64,000 nt of DNA from NCBI RefSeq assembly GCF_035594765.1, contig NC_085845.1, positions 64,784,024 through 64,848,023 on the forward strand, written 5' to 3'. The first letter of the stretch is position 1; each line of letters begins with the position of its first letter. The notes under the pieces are model-generated. The model was not told the origin of the DNA. It saw only the letters and a program-made list of their open reading frames with translations, and made no database searches. The DNA comes from Anolis carolinensis. Lineage: Eukaryota. Shown here piece by piece: positions 15,070 through 53,312 of the stretch. The position numbers and the translations under genes were made by a program.

Positions 15070-18000
15070 CTAGATTACTTTGGGTGCTGTTGTGGAAATG
15101 TATCAAATTGCTGATGAAAGCTGAAGAATTTTGTTATGGTGAGGAAAATTTAAGAAATTAATTATTTCAGAACTACTCCACCAAAGAAGCCTTCATACTG
15201 TACCCCAAACTGACAAAGTTACAACTAGGAAGAATTCTGGGAAAGGATCCTAAGTCTAGTGGTGCTGCTCAAAGCCATCTCTATGCCTTCCCATCACCTT
15301 TGTGGCCTTATGATGAAGCAAGCAGAGTGTGGAGGGGCAATGAAAACAAACTTGCTAGAGTATAAATAGCCACAGGTGTATTGAATACAGCAAAGTATCT
15401 TGATACAGCATGTGTGTGCATTGGATGCAGACATCAGACAACCAAAATGCCAATCAATGAACCCACTGAGCATGCCAGTTAGGTAAAAGCCCTGGAATAG
15501 GAGAATATACGAGGGGAGGTCAGAGGTTTGTAAGCTACTGTCATCTGGGAATGATGTAGGTCTAACAGCTTCTGAACTAGATGTTTTTTTGAAAGCCTTC
15601 ACCCCAAGATCTCCAAAATGGGGAGATATACACTCTGCTTATAAGCTCTAACACTGAATCAGGTTGAGTGTCCTAAAAGCCTTACCAAAACTCTGACAGA
15701 ATGAATTCTATAGCAAAGAAACCCAAGTTAAGTGTGAAGGGGATAGCCTTATCAGACTCTAAAATCAAAACATAACTTTTCTTCCCTAGGCTTATTGACC
15801 CCTTATAATGCACAAAACAATGCAAGAAAGGTTATTCAGAAAGACCAGATAAAGACCAAAGGAAAACTGGCCTATCAAGTTTGGCCAAGCATACCAGTCA
15901 AAGGGGGAATTATCCCACGTCCATCTCACAAGACAGTTAGTTAATTGGACTAACCAAGCAGTTTATCTTAGAAAACAATGTAAGATGTATCTGTTAGGGA
16001 AGGCAGCAACAAAAATCCACCAAAGATTATAGAATGGTTCTCATTTAATTCCCTGCACTGCAGTGCAGAACAGTGACAGAAACAAGCTGAAACCCATGTT
16101 TGCACTTGTGGTTAAATAAAGTAGTTAGCCTCCACATCCTGGGATGCTAAATGGAGAAAGGATTTTAATGGAAGAGCATTGTAGAACATGATCATCTCTA
16201 GCTGTATATAGAAACCATATTTATGCCTATTTGTATAGGAATAGAGATGGTTTTGAGCAGCACTTCTAGATTTTCCCAGCATAATGCAACTATTGTCCCT
16301 AGTTTTAACTTTGTCACTTTGAGGTATAGTATGGAAGCTAGGAGAGGGAAAAATCCAGAAGCACAAAAACTGAGTATGAGAATAAAGGGACATTGTCTCA
16401 AGGTGCTAGAAAGATTGATGTTTTGTAGTTAAAAGACCAAAATGCCTTTGCTTTTCTCTCAGGGTAAGATTATGACTTGCCCAAGCCCCGTTGGTTTCCA
16501 TTGCTCAGTTGAGATTTCAGCACTGGTCTCCAGAGTCTTAGTTTAATACTCAAAAGTATTACAAGGAGAAAAAGATGTAGAAAACATGCCTAACCTCTTG
16601 AAGCTCAATGAGATTCAAATTTAATATATATGTGAATAAACATTTTAGATGTCTTAAATCTGCCCATTACTCACCTCTCTTTGTACTTCAGAATATTTGG
16701 CAACAGATATTTTAAACTATCCATCTCCAGAATTTCTAGCTGGACTGAAAAAAGACTTTATTAAATAAAGTTAGGGAGTACTATTGATAATAAAATGCCT
16801 GTAGTATATACTTTCTTTCCAAAATAGGAATGTGTTTAAGATTTGATTTTTTCTGACATATCTTCTAACAAAAGAAGAAAGGAAAGGATTTGGATATTGA
16901 AACTAAAAATAGTTCCATGCTAATTTAATAACTAGGCAGATTTTTTTCCATCTGCCAAGAAGAATTTGAAAACCATTTCCTGCTGCCAATCACACTGTGG
17001 AAATGTAAAACGTCAGTGATAAAATCCAAGAGTCAATGATAAAAGTTGGATATTATGATTTATTTCCTAAAATTCATATCAGTTACTATGAGTGGTAAGT
17101 TGTAAGAGGTTGTGTAAAACAGTTCATGTACAAGAAGTGGATGTCTGTCCATTTTGCTTTGTTGTTAATTTTAAAGATAACCCCTCCCCAGAATTACCAT
17201 TGAAATTAATAACAAAGCAAAATGGACTGACATTCATTTCTTCTAGCTGCATATTAATGATTCCACAATTTCTTTGTCCCACCAGAGGCTACTATCCCAA
17301 ATACATGAAGCCAGGTATTCTGCATCCATAGATTCATTTCCATCATAGTTTTATGTTTTTGAATTAAGTTCTGAATTATAATTATGATTACCAAACTTTG
17401 AAAAGCAAAGAACAATATTTCACGCTTACCCAAAAACTAGTATGAAACATAATGACTACAACATAAATGCTAATACTGGCTTGAATGAGCCCATTGAATC
17501 AAAGGGACACTTTAGTCAACACTCAGGAGAATTTCAATCATTTCATGAATCTTCTATAGTTGTTGACTTTGCATACAGCAGTTACTTCAATGGATCGGTT
17601 TTAGTAAAGAATAACAGCTGGCTATATGATTGACAGGTTATTTTCTATGTGTGTATTTGCTGATTTAAAATGTTAATAAACTCTGACATACCTAATTGAC
17701 AAAATTAAAGAGAGATGTAAAAATTCATTAAACAGTGCTTACAGTCAAATACAAAGATACTCTGTAGACACCAAACTACATTAGTTATTAAAATCAAGAA
17801 AAACTAAATGTAACTGTTTGCTTCTGAATGGCATGGTTTTACAGGCGTGGTTTTAATCTTTAACCAGTGCCACAACACTACTGAAGCTAGCAACTTGACA
17901 TACTGGTGGCAGGATGTGTGAAGGAGAGATTGAATTTGAATTATAAGGTACCATCACAGAGAAGATCCTTTTCTTTAGTTCCGTTCATGTAAGCATGATT

Positions 18001-23193: not shown

Positions 23194-23500
23194 TTGTGTG
23201 TGTGTGTCAGGAGCAACTTGAGAAACTGCAAGTCGCTTCTGGTGTGAGAGAATTGGCTGTCTGCAAGGACATTACCCAGGGGATGGCCGGATGTTTTGAT
23301 GCTTTTACCATCCTTGTGGGAGGCTTCTCTCATGTCCCCACATGGAGCTGGAGGTGATCCGCACTCATCCGCGCTCTAGAGCTCATCCATGCTTTCCCTG
23401 GGTTGGATTCGAATGGCAACCTTCTGGTCAGCAACCCAACCTTCAAGTCATCAGTCCTGTCGGCACAAGGGTTTAACCCACTGTGCCACCGGGGGGTCCT
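23194..23500 (-). mobile_element. tRNA-derived SINE with Sauria-like head and Vingi-type 3' tail
   Basis: Minus-strand head CCCCCGGTGGCACAGTGGGTTAAACC with B-box-like TTCGAATCC. Tail ...GACTTGCAGTTTCTCAAGTTGCTCCTGACAC. TSD TGTCTTAGCT at 23184-23193 and 23501-23510. Confidence 0.85.
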
Positions 23501-23746: not shown

Positions 23747-25388
23747 GTGAGTATTGAATCTGTGAACAGAGATCTAGCGTCCGCCAGCTCACGCCCGGCA
23801 AAATTGTTCAAAATAATTCGATCTTTACCAATCCAAAAAGTGATGATCAGGCCCTTTCAGCCGAGGCTTTTCAAAGCTATTTTGCTGACAAGATCTCACT
23901 ACTATGCCAGGACCTCCCTGCCACAACTGATACAAGGAGAGAACTTGCTGGGCCCACCCTCGACTGGTTCATCCCACTGGACGCAGAGGCTGTCGATAGG
24001 CTCATAGCTGCAGCTAGACCGACCACTTGCTCCCTCGATCCATGTCCCTCTTGGTTGGTTAAATCTTGCTTGAAGGGATTACGTGACCCTCTGTTGAAGA
24101 TAATAAACAGCTCCCTTGAACAAGGAGTCTTTCCAGAGGGTTTAAAAGAGGCGGTGGTCTCTCCTCTGCTGAAGAAACCAGATTTAGATTGTTCGGTTCC
24201 CTCCAGCTATCGCCCAGTTTCGAACCTCCTGTTCCTGGGCAAGGTGATTGAGAGGGCAGTAGCGGAGCAGTTGCAACAGTTCCTAGATGACACAGCTGGA
24301 TTAGATCCCTTCCAGTCCGGCTTTCGTGCGGGGCATGGGGCAGCTGGTTTGAGGTTTCGGGCTTGAGTGCTACCAGTACACTGATGACACTCAGCTTATG
24401 TTGAAGATGGAAGGCCGACCGGACTCTGTACCCAATAACTTTCATCAATGCCTCAAGGCTGTTACTAGATGGCTGCATGCCAGCAGGTTGAGGGTGAATC
24501 CAGCAAAGATGGAGATCCTATGGCTGGGTCGACTGGGCAGTGGGGATATCCAGTTGCCTACTCTGGATGGTGAGGCGCTATGCCCGTCATCAGTGGAAAA
24601 GAGTCTGGGAGTCCTTTTGGACCTTCTGCTGATGATGGAAGCCCAGGTCTCCGCCATTAGTAGAACCGCCTTCTTTCACCTGCGGCAGGCTAGACGGCTG
24701 GCCCCCTGTCTGTCAAGGGATGACCTAGCTACAGTGATCCAGGCTACAGTTATCTCAAGACTGGACTACTGTAACACCCTCTACATTGGCCTTCCTTTGT
24801 CGGTGATCCGGAAGTTCAAGTGGGTATAAAATGCAGCTGCTCGACTCGGAGTCGCGATGAGATGTCATGTAACACCAATCTTACTGCAGCTGCACTGGGT
24901 ACCAATTGAGAACCGGATCACTTTCAAAGTGATGGTGCTTACCTTTATAGCCTTACATGGGACCGTCTCACCCCCTACCAACCTCAGAGATCCCTCCGTT
25001 CTCAGGACCAAGATCTGTTGGAAGTTCCCATTTTTAAGACCTTGCGTCTAACAGCAACTAGACGTAGAGCTTTTACAGCAGTGGCGCCATCACTCTGGAA
25101 CACTCTGCCACCCGAAGTTTGTGCCTTGCGGGACTTATCAGTCTTCCGCAGGGCATGTAAGACACACCTGTTTCGGCAGGCTTTTGATCTCCGTTATTGC
25201 TGTTTTTAAATTGCTTAGATTTTAGCTTGTCTTGTAAGCCACTCTGAGCCCTGGGGGAGTGTTTTTAAGATGTTTTTAAAGATGTTTTAAAGATGTTTTT
25301 AAATTGTTAGATTTTAGCCTGCTCTTGTAAGCCGCCCCAAGCCCTAGGGGAGTGGCGGCATATAAGTCTGAATAATAAATAAATAAAT
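23747..25388 (+). mobile_element. L2-clade LINE, 5'-truncated, with internally deleted reverse transcriptase and duplicated 3' tail
   Basis: YRPVSNLLFLGKVIER, DPFQSGFRAGHG, YQYTDDTQL (YTDD 24377-24388), SRLDYCN, LHWVP, RAFTAVAPSLWNTLP. Stops and frameshifts present. (TAAA)n end. Confidence 0.93.
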
Positions 25389-29367: not shown

Positions 29368-29623
29368 CTTTTTTGTGATACTTTTCCCTCCTCCTACTCA
29401 CATAAAACAACACTAGGTCTGGAGCACAATGAAGTATGTACAGTCCCATATGTAACTGCTATTTCTCTCATTTGATGGGGGGAAAGAAGCAAGCTATGCC
29501 TCTGTCTCACTTCAAGTCTGTGCAGTGGGACTGACAGGACTGTGTTTGAACTCCCTTTGAGATCCCGCATTTTTAAAAACCCATTTCTTTGCCGCGTTTT
29601 GGCGCTATCTGGTAGCACCCTCA

Positions 29624-29772
29624 GACTGGATCTACATTGCCCTATATTCCAGTATCCGAACCCAGATTATCTACTTCTCCCAGATTACTTGACAGTGTAG
29701 ACTCATATAATCCAGTTCAAAGCAGATAATCTGGGATCAGATCATGGGATATCGGGCAGTGTAGATCCAGCC
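29624..29772. mobile_element. Harbinger-type palindromic MITE with 3-bp TSD
   Basis: TCA flanks both sides. TIRs GACTGGATCTACATTGCCC / GGGCAGTGTAGATCCAGCC. Nearly fully self-complementary. Confidence 0.9.
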
Positions 29773-29899
29773 TCAGTGTCTGTTTCCAAGTTTTAAAACT
29801 CCCTTCATAGGTGATCTAGTAGCCCACCACCCTGCTTGCTTGCAAGTAAGGCATTTTATTGAAGGATAGTTTTTGTTTTTGGTGTGTTGCAGCAAATAA

Positions 29900-36175: not shown

Positions 36176-36732
36176 GGATTAAGGGAAATGAAATTTTCCA
36201 AATATTGGCAGACCAAAACACTCATCATGCCTAATCAGTATAACCAAGTGTGAGGGATAATGAAGGACTGTTCAGAGGGGACAACTAGAGACATTTGGTC
36301 ATTTGGTTCAAATTCCACAAAAGAAGCCCCCTTTCCTTAATTCATTGTGGACTAATATTACCCAGCAATATTGATTGCTAGGGCCCACCTTCCATATGTG
36401 TCAGCTCTTGCATCACACTCCCATCACACTCCATCACACTCCCAACATCATATTTGTCCCTAGTCGCATGAAGACCCCTGAGTGGTCTAGTCCAATGCTT
36501 CTTAAACTTTTTCAACTTGAATCTTCTTTCTGCCCATGAAATTTTTATATGACTCCATACGGGTGGATTCCAAGCCACACACTGCAAGAAGATTAAGGTG
36601 CAGATTTCCTTCAAGCAGGAGAGAAGGAAGGCAGTAAATGTCTGCAGGGGCTGGCAGGGTTTTGTTTCTCCTCCTTTTTCCTTATGTATGCCCCTCCACC
36701 TTTTCTTGACCCACACACTCCTAGTCCTTGTG

Positions 36733-37149
36733 GGGTGCTTCCCAAGGGGTGAGGGCTTGCAGAGGGACGTCTCCCCGGATCTCCCTCGGCCAGGCCATTG
36801 CTGGAGGAAACTTTCCTCCAGCAAGGGCCTGGCCAAGGGAGATCCGGGTCACGCTCAGCGTTTCTCAGAGGGACAGGCCCTTGCTCCAGCACGGGCCTGT
36901 CCCTCCGAGAAACAAGGAGCATGCTGCAAGTTTTCCTCGGCCAGGCCATTGCTGGAGGAATCCAAGGAGACGTCCCTCGGTGAGCCCTCGCCCCTTGGGA
37001 AGCTCCCGCTGCTGCCTAGCAACACTCACAGGCACTTCCCTAAACAGGATTGCCAGGAGGGATAATAGGGCCTCCCGGCAATCTGAGCGGTTCTGGTTAT
37101 CCTAGATTGGGCCCGCCCCTTTATCTTGAATAACCAGGACTCTATTGTA
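36733..37149. repeat. GC-rich nested inverted-repeat (fold-back) cassette ending in a mariner/Tigger-like terminus
   Basis: Five stems of 42, 37, 26, 13 and 16 bp (see findings). Right end GAATAACCAGGACTCTATTG|TA. Confidence 0.85.
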
Positions 37150-37287
37150 TTTGTTATTTTAAAAAAACCTGTATTAAATACTTGGATTTAGGGGAACTAT
37201 TTTTCACATTTGAAGTTTTTTCACTGTTTCTGTATTAATATGTAACATATCAATTATATGGGAGCTGAGAAATACTGAGTTAAATCA

Positions 37288-37567
37288 TTTTTTTCTGTGT
37301 CAGGAGCGACTTGAGAAACTGCAACTTGCTTCTGGTGTGAGAGAATTGGCCGTCTGCAAGGACGTTGCCCAAGGGATGCCCAGATGTTTTGATGTTTTAC
37401 TCTCCTTGAGGGAGGCTTCTCTCAAGTCTCCACATGGAACTGGAGCTGATAGAGGGAGCTCATCCGCGCTTTCCCTGGGTTGGATTCGAACCCGCAAATT
37501 TCAGGTCAGCAAGCCAACCTTCAAGTCAGCAGTCCTGCCACCACAAGGGTTTAACTCGCTGCATCCT
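37288..37567 (-). mobile_element. SINE with Vingi-type tail (second copy of the 23194 family)
   Basis: Near-identical to 23194-23500. Flanks AGTTAAATCA / AGTTAATTCA form a probable 10-bp TSD. Confidence 0.85.
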
Positions 37568-41666: not shown

Positions 41667-42132
41667 AAACAATAAATACAGATATAATAAAAAGAAAACA
41701 TGGCCTATCAATTAAATTATATATAACACAAAACATAATTATCAATTTAAAAAACCCACCAAGAAATCTTTTAAAAATAGTCTTAAAATTAAATTCTTCA
41801 ATAACAGCAGTGTCATTAAAGAGCTAAGTATACTGACCTTATAAAGATAGTAATAAAGGCAAAGAGCTCCAAATGGGAGCTATTGTTCTTTTAAAAAGTA
41901 AAGTAGCAAAGTGTTGCTTTTCTTTTCATAAGAGAAAAGAAAACTTCACCATATTATTTAATAGGGTTGGGCAAAAAATTCGAATCCTTCTGATGTCGTA
42001 TCCAATTCGTATGTTTTCTCACTTTTGAACTGTGTTTAGAAAAAGGTTATCCTGTCGTATGTATCCCACGATATCGAACCCTTGATTGCCAATTTTTCGA
42101 ATGGTGTCGAATGTTTCGGAGGGGGCAAGCAT

Positions 42133-43035
42133 GGAGAACGAGCGGGGGAGAGGTCTGGGTGTGCTGGAGTGCTTGGCTGCTGCTTGCAATGGGCCGCTTT
42201 AATCTGCTTTGGAGAACGAGCGGGGGAGAGGTCTGGGTGTGCTGGAGTGCTTGGCTGTTGCTTGCAATGGGCCGCTTTAATCCGCTTTGGAGAAGGAGCG
42301 GGGAGAGGTCTGGGTGTGCTGGAGTGCTTGGCTGTTGCTTGCAATGGGCCGCTTTAATCTGCTTTGGAGAACGAGCGGGGGAGAGGTCTGGGTGTGCTGG
42401 AGTGCTTGGTTGCTTGCAATGGGCCGCTTGAATCCGCTTTGAAGAACGAGCGGGGGAGAGGTCTGGGTGTGCTGGAGTGCTTGGTTGCTTGCAATGGGCC
42501 GCTTGAATCCGCTTTGGAGAACGAGCGGGGGAGAGGTCTGGGTGTGCTGGAGTGCTTGGTTGCTTGCAATGGGCCGCTTGAATCCGCTTTGGAGAACGAG
42601 CGGGGGAGAGGTCTGGGTGTGCTGGAGTGCTTGGTTGCTTGCAATGGGCCGCTTGAATCCGCTTTGGAGAACAAGCGGGGGAGAGGTCTGGGTGTGCTGG
42701 AGTGCTTGGCTGTTGCTTGCAATGGGCCGCTTTAATCTGCTTTGGAGAACGAGCGGGGGAGAGGTCTGGGTGTGCTGGAGTGCTTGGTTGCTTGCAATGG
42801 GCCGCTTGAATCCGCTTTGAAGAACGAGCGGGGGAGAGGTCTGGGTGTGCTGGAGTGCTTGGTTGCTTGCAATGGGCCGCTTGAATCCGCTTTGGAGAAC
42901 GAGTGGGGGAGAGGTCTGGGTGTGCTGGAGTGCTTGGTTGCTTGCAATGGGCCGCTTGAATCCGCTTTGGAGAACAAGCGGGGGAGTGGTCTGGGTGTGC
43001 TGGAGTGCTTGGCTGCTTGCTATTGGGGCGCTTTA
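42133..43035. repeat. GC-rich minisatellite, 12 units of 75-78 bp
   Basis: Units start at 42133, 42211, 42289, 42366, 42441, 42516, 42591, 42666, 42744, 42819, 42894 and 42969. Confidence 0.97.
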
Positions 43036-43247
43036 AACCTATATCCCAGGATCTAGTTTCAGATTATCTGATTTAAACTGGATTATATGAGTTCTCTCTG
43101 CAGATAATCTGGGATAAGAAGAAAAGTGATGGATCTGGACCAAGCTTGGCACACACCAGCTGTGAATCCTAGGGGGGTTTTGGATGGTTGACCCAAGACT
43201 TTTGGGAATTGTAGTTCACCCATACATTTTCTCATGGGAGCATTCAT

Positions 43248-53177: not shown

Positions 53178-53312
53178 CAGTGGTTCTCAACCTGGAGTCC
53201 CAAGATGTTTTTGGCTTACAACTTCCAAAAATCCCAGTCAGTTTGCCAGCTGTTAGGGTTTCTGGGAGTTGAAGGCCAAAAACATATGGGTACTCCAGAT
53301 TGACAACCACAG
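53178..53312. mobile_element. hAT (Charlie-type) palindromic MITE
   Basis: TIRs CAGTGGTTCTCAACCT / AGATTGACAACCACAG. TSD TGCTAAGT/TACTAAGT. Confidence 0.88.

What the first reader, a model, noticed from the sequence alone, without database searches (positions are those of the whole stretch)
36733..37007. Branched T/Y-shaped fold-back: 42-bp outer stem enclosing two near-perfect palindromes
Seen: outer arms 36733-36774/36966-37007 (5 mismatches). Inner hairpin 1 spans 36774-36848 (37-bp arms, 2 mismatches, 1-nt centre). Inner hairpin 2 spans 36860-36913 (26-bp arms, 2 mismatches, 2-nt centre). An exact 26-bp direct copy of the hairpin-1 arm (36784-36809) sits at 36935-36960. The inner arms are built from a CAGGCC[C/A]TTGCT motif. 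It is a GC- and CpG-rich island in AT-rich DNA. The A-B-B'-C-C'-A' layout recalls parvoviral terminal hairpins (analogy only; no rep/cap here). More likely it is the cargo of a non-autonomous mariner/Tigger-like element built by repeated template switching. It could extrude cruciforms or give structured/dsRNA if transcribed.
Basis: partly seen in the sequence, partly recalled or inferred. Interest (0 to 1): 0.7.

Follow-up and report, generated by a model that had tools for sequence, protein, structure and literature searches.

The report
Nested hairpins inside a lizard transposon
The branched fold-back is real, but it is the interior of a broken copy of a multi-copy, gene-less Tigger-type jumping element whose nested palindromes were likely built and flipped by DNA-copying slips and are now decaying unrepaired, so it is likely an ordinary transposon fossil rather than a viral end or a working RNA.

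Summary
The arms, mismatch counts and 26-bp direct copy are exactly as described (folding z -15.6). The stretch is the core of a TA-flanked, non-autonomous Tigger/pogo-type DNA transposon: 452 first-look candidates for the core, 129 exact left-end matches. Both ends are homologous to an intact 3.3-kb DD32D Tigger element found here. The family core is one ~155-bp-arm palindrome holding three hairpins. The T/Y shape exists because this copy lost 35 bp of hairpin 3; it also lost its left end. Flip/flop inversions are real: loops and spacers occur in both orientations among copies, and the window copy has its own inverted 18-bp spacer (0 of 29 scorable copies share it). Arms show no compensation beyond chance (32 cells vs 32.2 shuffled). 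Interiors vary widely (56 architectures in 67 copies). Template switching, a known mechanism, likely explains this. The scan noted similar hairpin-packed hAT elements elsewhere in this genome. Ordinary mechanism, family not in the one survey read.

The parts
36727..37147 (+). Left-truncated copy of a non-autonomous Tigger/pogo-type DNA transposon; about 255 bp including the left terminal repeat are missing
   Evidence: Aligns to positions 256-722 of full copy L007 at 79%; no match to the missing left part elsewhere in the window beyond short weak hits; family ends
36733..36774 (+). Outer arm A
   Evidence: 42 bp, 5 mismatches to A'
36774..36848 (.). Hairpin 1 (37-bp arms); short-loop variant shared with several other copies
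36860..36913 (.). Hairpin 2 (26-bp arms), centre of the family-wide large palindrome
36935..36960 (+).
   Evidence: Deletion seen in 1 of 41 cores and 1 of 38
36966..37007 (+). Outer arm A'
37008..37025 (.). 18-bp spacer of a fourth hairpin, inverted in this copy relative to the family
   Evidence: Of 37 copies with the downstream block: 29 opposite to the window, 0 as the window, 8 neither; bridged without differences by a contig of run X2, 36974-37076
37125..37147 (+). Right terminal inverted repeat (about 23 bp)
   Evidence: last 60 bp are 67% identical to the 3' end of the intact Tigger element
37148..37149 (+). TA target dinucleotide
   Evidence: 83 of 98 full copies have TA at both ends (the end patterns used favour TA)
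36601..36722 (+). Older unrelated repeat fused to the truncated element at the left deletion junction
   Evidence: 74-75% matches at L142, L143, L146; junction crossed by contigs of 4 of 4 runs

Best explanation
This is the palindromic interior of a truncated, non-autonomous Tigger/pogo-type cut-and-paste transposon, whose nested hairpins were likely generated and flipped by DNA polymerase template switching and which likely has no function at this locus. Shown: TA-flanked ~23-bp terminal repeats, many dispersed copies, ends homologous to an intact DD32D Tigger element, a three-hairpin/one-rod family core, inversions of loops and spacers between copies, and no compensation of point changes. 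Inferred: a related Tigger transposase mobilised the copies in trans; fold-back copying, probably in single-stranded DNA during gap repair or replication, doubled modules into a palindrome of palindromes, inverted spacers and copied one arm over the other; hairpin-skipping deletions removed arms, and one of them gave this copy its T/Y shape; after insertion the copies decay neutrally, fastest at CpG.
For: Copies: 192 matches from 40 scored of 452 candidates; 129 exact left-end hits against 0 for the reversed control. Ends: 83 of 98 full copies have TA at both ends. Helper family: five 3.33-3.35-kb elements 98.8-99.1% identical to the reference, TA-flanked, with a DDE_1 / HTH_Tnp_Tc5 / weak CENP-B_N protein and 32 residues between the second and third catalytic-position Asp. 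Median identity of 97 copies' first and last 60 bp to its 5' and 3' ends is 72% and 68%, against 55% and 58% crosswise. Template-switch marks: among 64 full copies with hairpin modules, the scored centres split 36:13 (hairpin 1, n=49), 45:2 (hairpin 3, n=47), 32:3 (hairpin 2, n=35), 35:6 (n=41) and 18:3 (n=21) for two small outer palindromes; the spacer after hairpin 1 is the usual one in 26 and a reversed copy of the opposite spacer in 16 (n=42). L025 and L028 have the whole central spacer inverted while L024 has only the hairpin-2 tip inverted, so at least two events. The window copy has its own flip. Loop inversion at stems is a described template-switch product (PMC8794818, passages); arm homogenisation and spacer inversion likewise (PMC8604942, abstract start in listing). 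Decay: non-CpG divergence from the family majority 2-9%, CpG 15-37% over 41 cores; compensated cells 32 against 32.2 +/- 4.3 shuffled.
Against: The intact Tigger's ends are only about 70% identical to this family's (up to about 80% locally) and it is much younger (99% between copies), so it is a relative and probably not the actual helper; no closer autonomous element was found among the 20 transposase loci examined of 149 matches. The rod fold shows a small excess of pairs with two-sided change (32 vs 25.2, 3 of 500 shuffles) and of pair types (120 vs 112.5, 2 of 500), though not of cells (50 vs 46.6, 143 of 500). The tool warns that relatedness alone can give this, but some arm-to-arm correction is not excluded. 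The orientation labels are a purine/pyrimidine proxy and some minority calls could be point mutations. The tree of element ends is weak (3 of 61 branches at 95 or above), so the parsimony counts of 9, 2, 3, 5, 3 and 6 changes are not firm event counts. No empty insertion site was examined. The timing of flips (during transposition or after insertion) is not resolved.
Confidence: 0.88

Rival explanations
1. Parvovirus/AAV-like terminal hairpin (endogenous viral end) with flip/flop from rolling-hairpin replication.
For: T/Y fold in this copy; flip/flop isomers exist in the family.
Against: The hairpins are internal to an element with terminal repeats and TA flanks. The T shape is present in 1 of 41 cores and results from a deletion. 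Flips occur at six or more sites of different sizes rather than one terminal isomer pair. No viral family was hit among 102 window reading frames of 78 aa or more scanned against Pfam (10 frames in the 42-43 kb tandem repeat were left out).
Confidence: 0.02
2. The hairpins are maintained because they work as structured or double-stranded RNA (miRNA/siRNA precursor, editing substrate) or as cruciform sites.
For: Very stable folds; sub-threshold Rfam matches to pre-miRNA models, best 52.4 bits against a cut-off of 62; slight excess of pair types in the rod fold.
Against: No compensation in the cruciform fold: 32 vs 32.2 cells, covariation 0.055 vs 0.055. Heavy CpG decay and frequent arm deletions. 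The best Rfam alignment is mostly pairing-only matches to a generic long stem.
Confidence: 0.06
3. The interior structure is selected at the level of the transposon: fold-back brings the ends together or aids mobilisation, so palindromic masters out-replicate others.
For: The family majority core is a near-perfect palindrome; the intact Tigger also carries repeated short palindromes upstream of its ORF, with weak similarity to some family modules (E about 1e-3).
Against: Full-length copies run from 214 to 1418 bp, and 45 of 120 loci lack the hairpin 1/2/3 modules, so they are dispensable for transposition.
Confidence: 0.1
4. Assembly fold-back artefact.
For: The core's interior (36900-36970) was not bridged by a listed contig piece.
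Against: Dispersed diverged copies; junction and flanking parts recovered identically in independent runs.
Confidence: 0.01

Closest known systems
TcMar-N7_AC, N8_AC and N12_AC, non-autonomous Tc1/mariner families of Anolis carolinensis (Novick et al., PMC3014272; Table 2 and the Tc1/mariner results read)
   Same: TA target site, 20-25-bp terminal repeats that begin with the same bases, no coding capacity. Their printed terminal repeat equals one end of the intact Tigger element found here.
   Different: This family's terminal repeat differs further in and is not among the 17 TcMar-N rows of Table 2. Its interior is GC-rich, palindromic and variable (214-1418 bp), not of fixed length. That paper has 0 occurrences of 'palindrom' or 'hairpin'.
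Tigger/pogo autonomous elements (DDE_1, HTH_Tnp_Tc5, CENP-B_N; DD32D spacing recalled as Tigger-typical)
   Same: Both ends homologous in the right polarity; TA flanks.
   Different: No transposase sequence; only about 70% end identity to the intact copies; interior similarity weak.
Template-switch mutation at inverted repeats (PMC8794818, passages read; PMC8604942 and PMC5453318, search listing with abstract start only)
   Same: Loop inversion, spacer inversion, arm homogenisation and stem extension.
   Different: Here iterated into nested palindromes inside a mobile element and recorded in hundreds of copies; no selection for pairing seen.
Parvovirus/AAV T-shaped terminal hairpins (recalled, no call)
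   Same: Branched fold and inverted isomers.
   Different: Internal rather than terminal; T shape not the family state; no viral genes found.
Foldback-type elements and hairpin MITEs (recalled; Galileo and Tm1 papers seen as listings only)
   Same: Long internal self-complementarity and structural heterogeneity in non-autonomous DNA transposons.
   Different: Short terminal repeats with an internal palindrome, not long modular terminal repeats; Tigger rather than P or Mutator superfamily.

Membership tests
Non-autonomous Tc1/mariner-pogo (Tigger) element | TA target-site duplication | tested here: met
   83 of 98 full copies have TA at both ends (patterns favour TA; no empty site examined). 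The window copy has TA on the right only, the left end being lost.
Non-autonomous Tc1/mariner-pogo (Tigger) element | Short terminal inverted repeats, about 23-25 bp | tested here: met
   25-nt arms including TA, 84% complementary, in L003; ends listed
Non-autonomous Tc1/mariner-pogo (Tigger) element | Ends related to an autonomous pogo/Tigger element | tested here: met
   72% and 68% median end identity to an intact DD32D element
Non-autonomous Tc1/mariner-pogo (Tigger) element | Dispersed copies without a transposase gene | tested here: met
   frames over the finding have no Pfam hit
Non-autonomous Tc1/mariner-pogo (Tigger) element | Mobilisation in trans by a transposase | not testable with these tools
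   Inferred from end homology
Classical MITE (homogeneous small family) | Uniform length and structure among copies | tested here: not met
   56 architecture classes among 67 left-end-ascertained full copies; largest class 5
TcMar-N1 to N17_AC | Terminal repeat as printed in Table 2 | tested here: not met
   No row matches beyond the shared first bases
Repbase/Dfam Anolis families | Match to a deposited consensus | not testable with these tools
   No such library available; the family may already be deposited
Parvoviral terminal repeat | Terminal position flanking rep/cap genes | tested here: not met
   Internal to a TA-flanked element; no viral Pfam hit
Conserved structured RNA / pre-miRNA | Compensatory base changes | tested here: not met
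   weak ambiguous signal for the rod fold
Conserved structured RNA / pre-miRNA | Rfam gathering score | tested here: not met
   0 of 20 matches reach the cut-off
Conserved structured RNA / pre-miRNA | Expression and processing | not tested
   No RNA run was laid

The most novel reading that the evidence does not exclude
A Tigger-type lineage in which the palindromic interior is rewritten so often that most new insertions carry a new architecture (56 classes in 67 copies, inversions at six or more sites, a private flip in this very copy). Rearrangement would be coupled to each transposition and gap-repair cycle, making the family, with the similar hAT families of this genome, a several-hundred-copy natural assay of template switching, palindrome doubling and hairpin deletion in a vertebrate germ line.
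Probability: 0.25. Interest if true: 0.5.

Novelty: new member of a known kind. Interest (0 to 1): 0.24.

Why it matters
As a locus it most likely matters little: a broken repeat copy. As a family it records, many times over, how copying slips build and flip hairpins in a vertebrate genome, which bears on the origin of new RNA stems and fragile palindromes. A by-product may be of more use: five near-identical intact Tigger elements whose end matches the orphan families TcMar-N7, N8 and N12_AC, for which the 2011 survey found no autonomous partner.

Tried and rejected
A CpG-masked compensation test in my own script was not run; compensation rests, which do not mask CpG sites. One search timed out. 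mis-oriented several copies and was replaced. One search (pattern search) returned an error; a shorter pattern gave 22 loci with perfect hairpin-2 arms. Looking for the missing left end elsewhere in the window found nothing convincing. Run search: no RNA holder listed. Contigs did not cover 36900-36970 at 100% identity in a listed piece. The tree of element ends was too weak to count flip events, and no shuffled-label control was printed. Literature: five searches on the family, its structure and its helper listed no paper describing this family or its hairpins; one search returned 0 papers; one search was on the mechanism. The library lacks most subscription journals and Repbase, and the supplements of PMC3014272 were not opened, so absence from print is not shown. 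Look-up of earlier findings by sequence returned nothing. The host gene context was not established: only reverse-transcriptase fragments and sub-threshold hits.

Full report
Observation. The 301-nt region folds at -121.8 kcal/mol against -58.5 +/- 4.1 for 100 dinucleotide shuffles. GC is 0.64 against 0.39 window-wide and CpG o/e is 0.43 against 0.22. It is single-copy within the window but not in the genome.

It is a repeat interior. A search of the own genome gave 452 candidates, of which 40 were scored, with 192 matches. Aligning flanks of the top loci showed an element of about 500-1000 bp with short terminal inverted repeats and TA on both sides. A degenerate left-end pattern has 129 exact hits and 0 for the reversed control. 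From core hits, 90 of the 129 left-end hits and hairpin-2 hits I assembled 120 distinct loci. Of these 98 are full-length, 83 of the 98 have TA at both ends, and 75 of the 120 carry hairpin 1/2/3 modules (2 loci without recognisable ends and 13 duplicates were dropped, two of them near-identical neighbours rather than the same locus). The window copy spans 36727-37147 plus TA. It lacks about 255 bp at the left including the left repeat and is fused to an older repeat. Contigs from 4 of 4 runs of 4 studies cross that junction without differences.

Which superfamily. A DDE_1 search gave 149 matches, and 20 loci were fetched. Five are near-identical 3.33-3.35-kb TA-flanked elements (98.8-99.1% to the reference) with an open frame carrying DDE_1 and HTH_Tnp_Tc5 and a sub-threshold CENP-B_N. 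Asp residues 297 and 330 are 32 apart; that DD32D marks Tigger is recalled. The hairpin family's first and last 60 bp match this element's 5' and 3' ends at median 72% and 68% over 97 copies, against 55% and 58% crosswise (local hits about 80%). The intact element is therefore a relative of the helper, but probably too young and too divergent to be the helper itself. One of its ends equals the terminal repeat printed for TcMar-N7, N8 and N12_AC in Table 2 of PMC3014272, which points to an anole genome. That paper found no autonomous partner for them, and lists no family with this element's terminal repeat.

True anatomy. In 41 cores the majority sequence folds as one rod with arms of about 155 bp centred on hairpin 2, with hairpins 1 and 3 as mirror-image nested palindromes. 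The window copy alone, 1 of 41, lacks the following 35 bp, which turns a three-armed or rod structure into a T/Y. Other copies have different deletions in the same hairpin (L005, L021, L024, L107), some between short direct repeats, as expected for hairpin skipping (established knowledge, recalled).

Flip/flop. Among 64 full copies with hairpin modules, loop centres occur in both orientations: hairpin 1 36:13 (n=49), hairpin 3 45:2 (n=47), hairpin 2 32:3 (n=35), two small outer palindromes 35:6 (n=41) and 18:3 (n=21). The spacer after hairpin 1 is replaced by a reversed copy of the opposite spacer in 16 of 42. The labels are a purine/pyrimidine proxy, so some minority calls may be point changes. 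Base-level alignment confirms whole-spacer inversion in L025 and L028 and tip-only inversion in L024. The window copy has an 18-bp spacer, 37008-37025, inverted against 29 of 29 scorable copies among 37 examined, and a contig of run X2 bridges it without differences. The tree of element ends is weak (3 of 61 branches at 95 or above), so the number of independent events is not firm. Among 67 left-end-ascertained full copies there are 56 architecture classes. [quoted passage not shown]

No maintenance. On 38 aligned cores (3 of the 41 left out as short or interrupted) the cruciform fold has 32 cells changed on both sides against 32.2 +/- 4.3 in shuffles, and covariation 0.055 against 0.055. The rod fold has 50 against 46.6 cells (143 of 500 shuffles as high) but a slight excess of pairs (32 vs 25.2, 3 of 500) and pair types (120 vs 112.5, 2 of 500), which relatedness and a few flips can produce. 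Divergence from the majority is 2-9% outside CpG and 15-37% at CpG. Rfam gives 20 matches, none at the cut-off. Expression was not tested.

Mechanism. Shown: element anatomy, copy variation, inversions, conversions, deletions, uncompensated decay. Inferred: mobilisation in trans by a Tigger transposase, and template switching at inverted repeats, which is described to invert loops and extend or homogenise stems (PMC8794818, passages; PMC8604942, abstract start). Whether switching happens during gap repair after excision or during replication of resting copies is open. The private flip in this copy fits either.

Novelty. The mechanism and the element class are known. The family was not found in the one survey read or in five literature searches, but Repbase and Dfam could not be checked. 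Earlier notes of this scan describe similar hairpin-packed hAT elements in the same genome; these are unchecked AI notes and are not counted as support. One of them reports arms changing in matching pairs, which was not seen here. Verdict: real, explained, a new member of a known kind; interest 0.24.

Noticed in passing
L061-L065 / L168:269-3606 (G000 C3, C1, C4): Five near-identical (about 99%) intact 3.3-kb Tigger/pogo elements with an open transposase frame and TA flanks. One end equals the printed terminal repeat of the orphan families TcMar-N7, N8 and N12_AC; likely their recent helper and possibly still active.
   Followed up: partly
L168:2900-3460: The intact Tigger carries a tandem array of short perfect palindromes upstream of its ORF, weakly similar (E about 1e-3) to modules of the hairpin family.
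   Followed up: partly
L157:964-2039: A copy with five tandem repeats of the spacer-plus-hairpin-3 module, 1076 bp in all: the interior can also expand as a minisatellite.
   Followed up: no
L066-L069, L074, L077, L079 (G000 C2, about 19-24 Mb): A cluster of long open DDE_1 frames (509-588 aa) on one chromosome arm; possibly domesticated Tigger-derived genes or younger copies.
   Followed up: no
window 42132-43039: GC-rich tandem array with a unit of about 75-78 bp at 89-96% identity.
   Followed up: no
window 36483-36557: Truncated end of a hAT-like non-autonomous repeat with many genomic matches; hAT label from resemblance to printed terminal repeats and recall.
   Followed up: partly
window 37286-37561 and 23203-23483: Two copies (82% alike) of a very high-copy SINE-like repeat; name recalled as Sauria SINE, not tested.
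   Followed up: no
window 23758-24826: Frame-broken reverse-transcriptase fragments of a LINE-like element, below the Pfam cut-off.
   Followed up: no
window 17129-17245, 29617-29779, 53180-53310: Three further degenerate palindromes (73-77% arm identity), probably other small transposons.
   Followed up: no
L059/L060 and L085/L086/L087: Near-identical neighbouring copies 6 kb to 350 kb apart, probably from local or segmental duplication rather than transposition.
   Followed up: no
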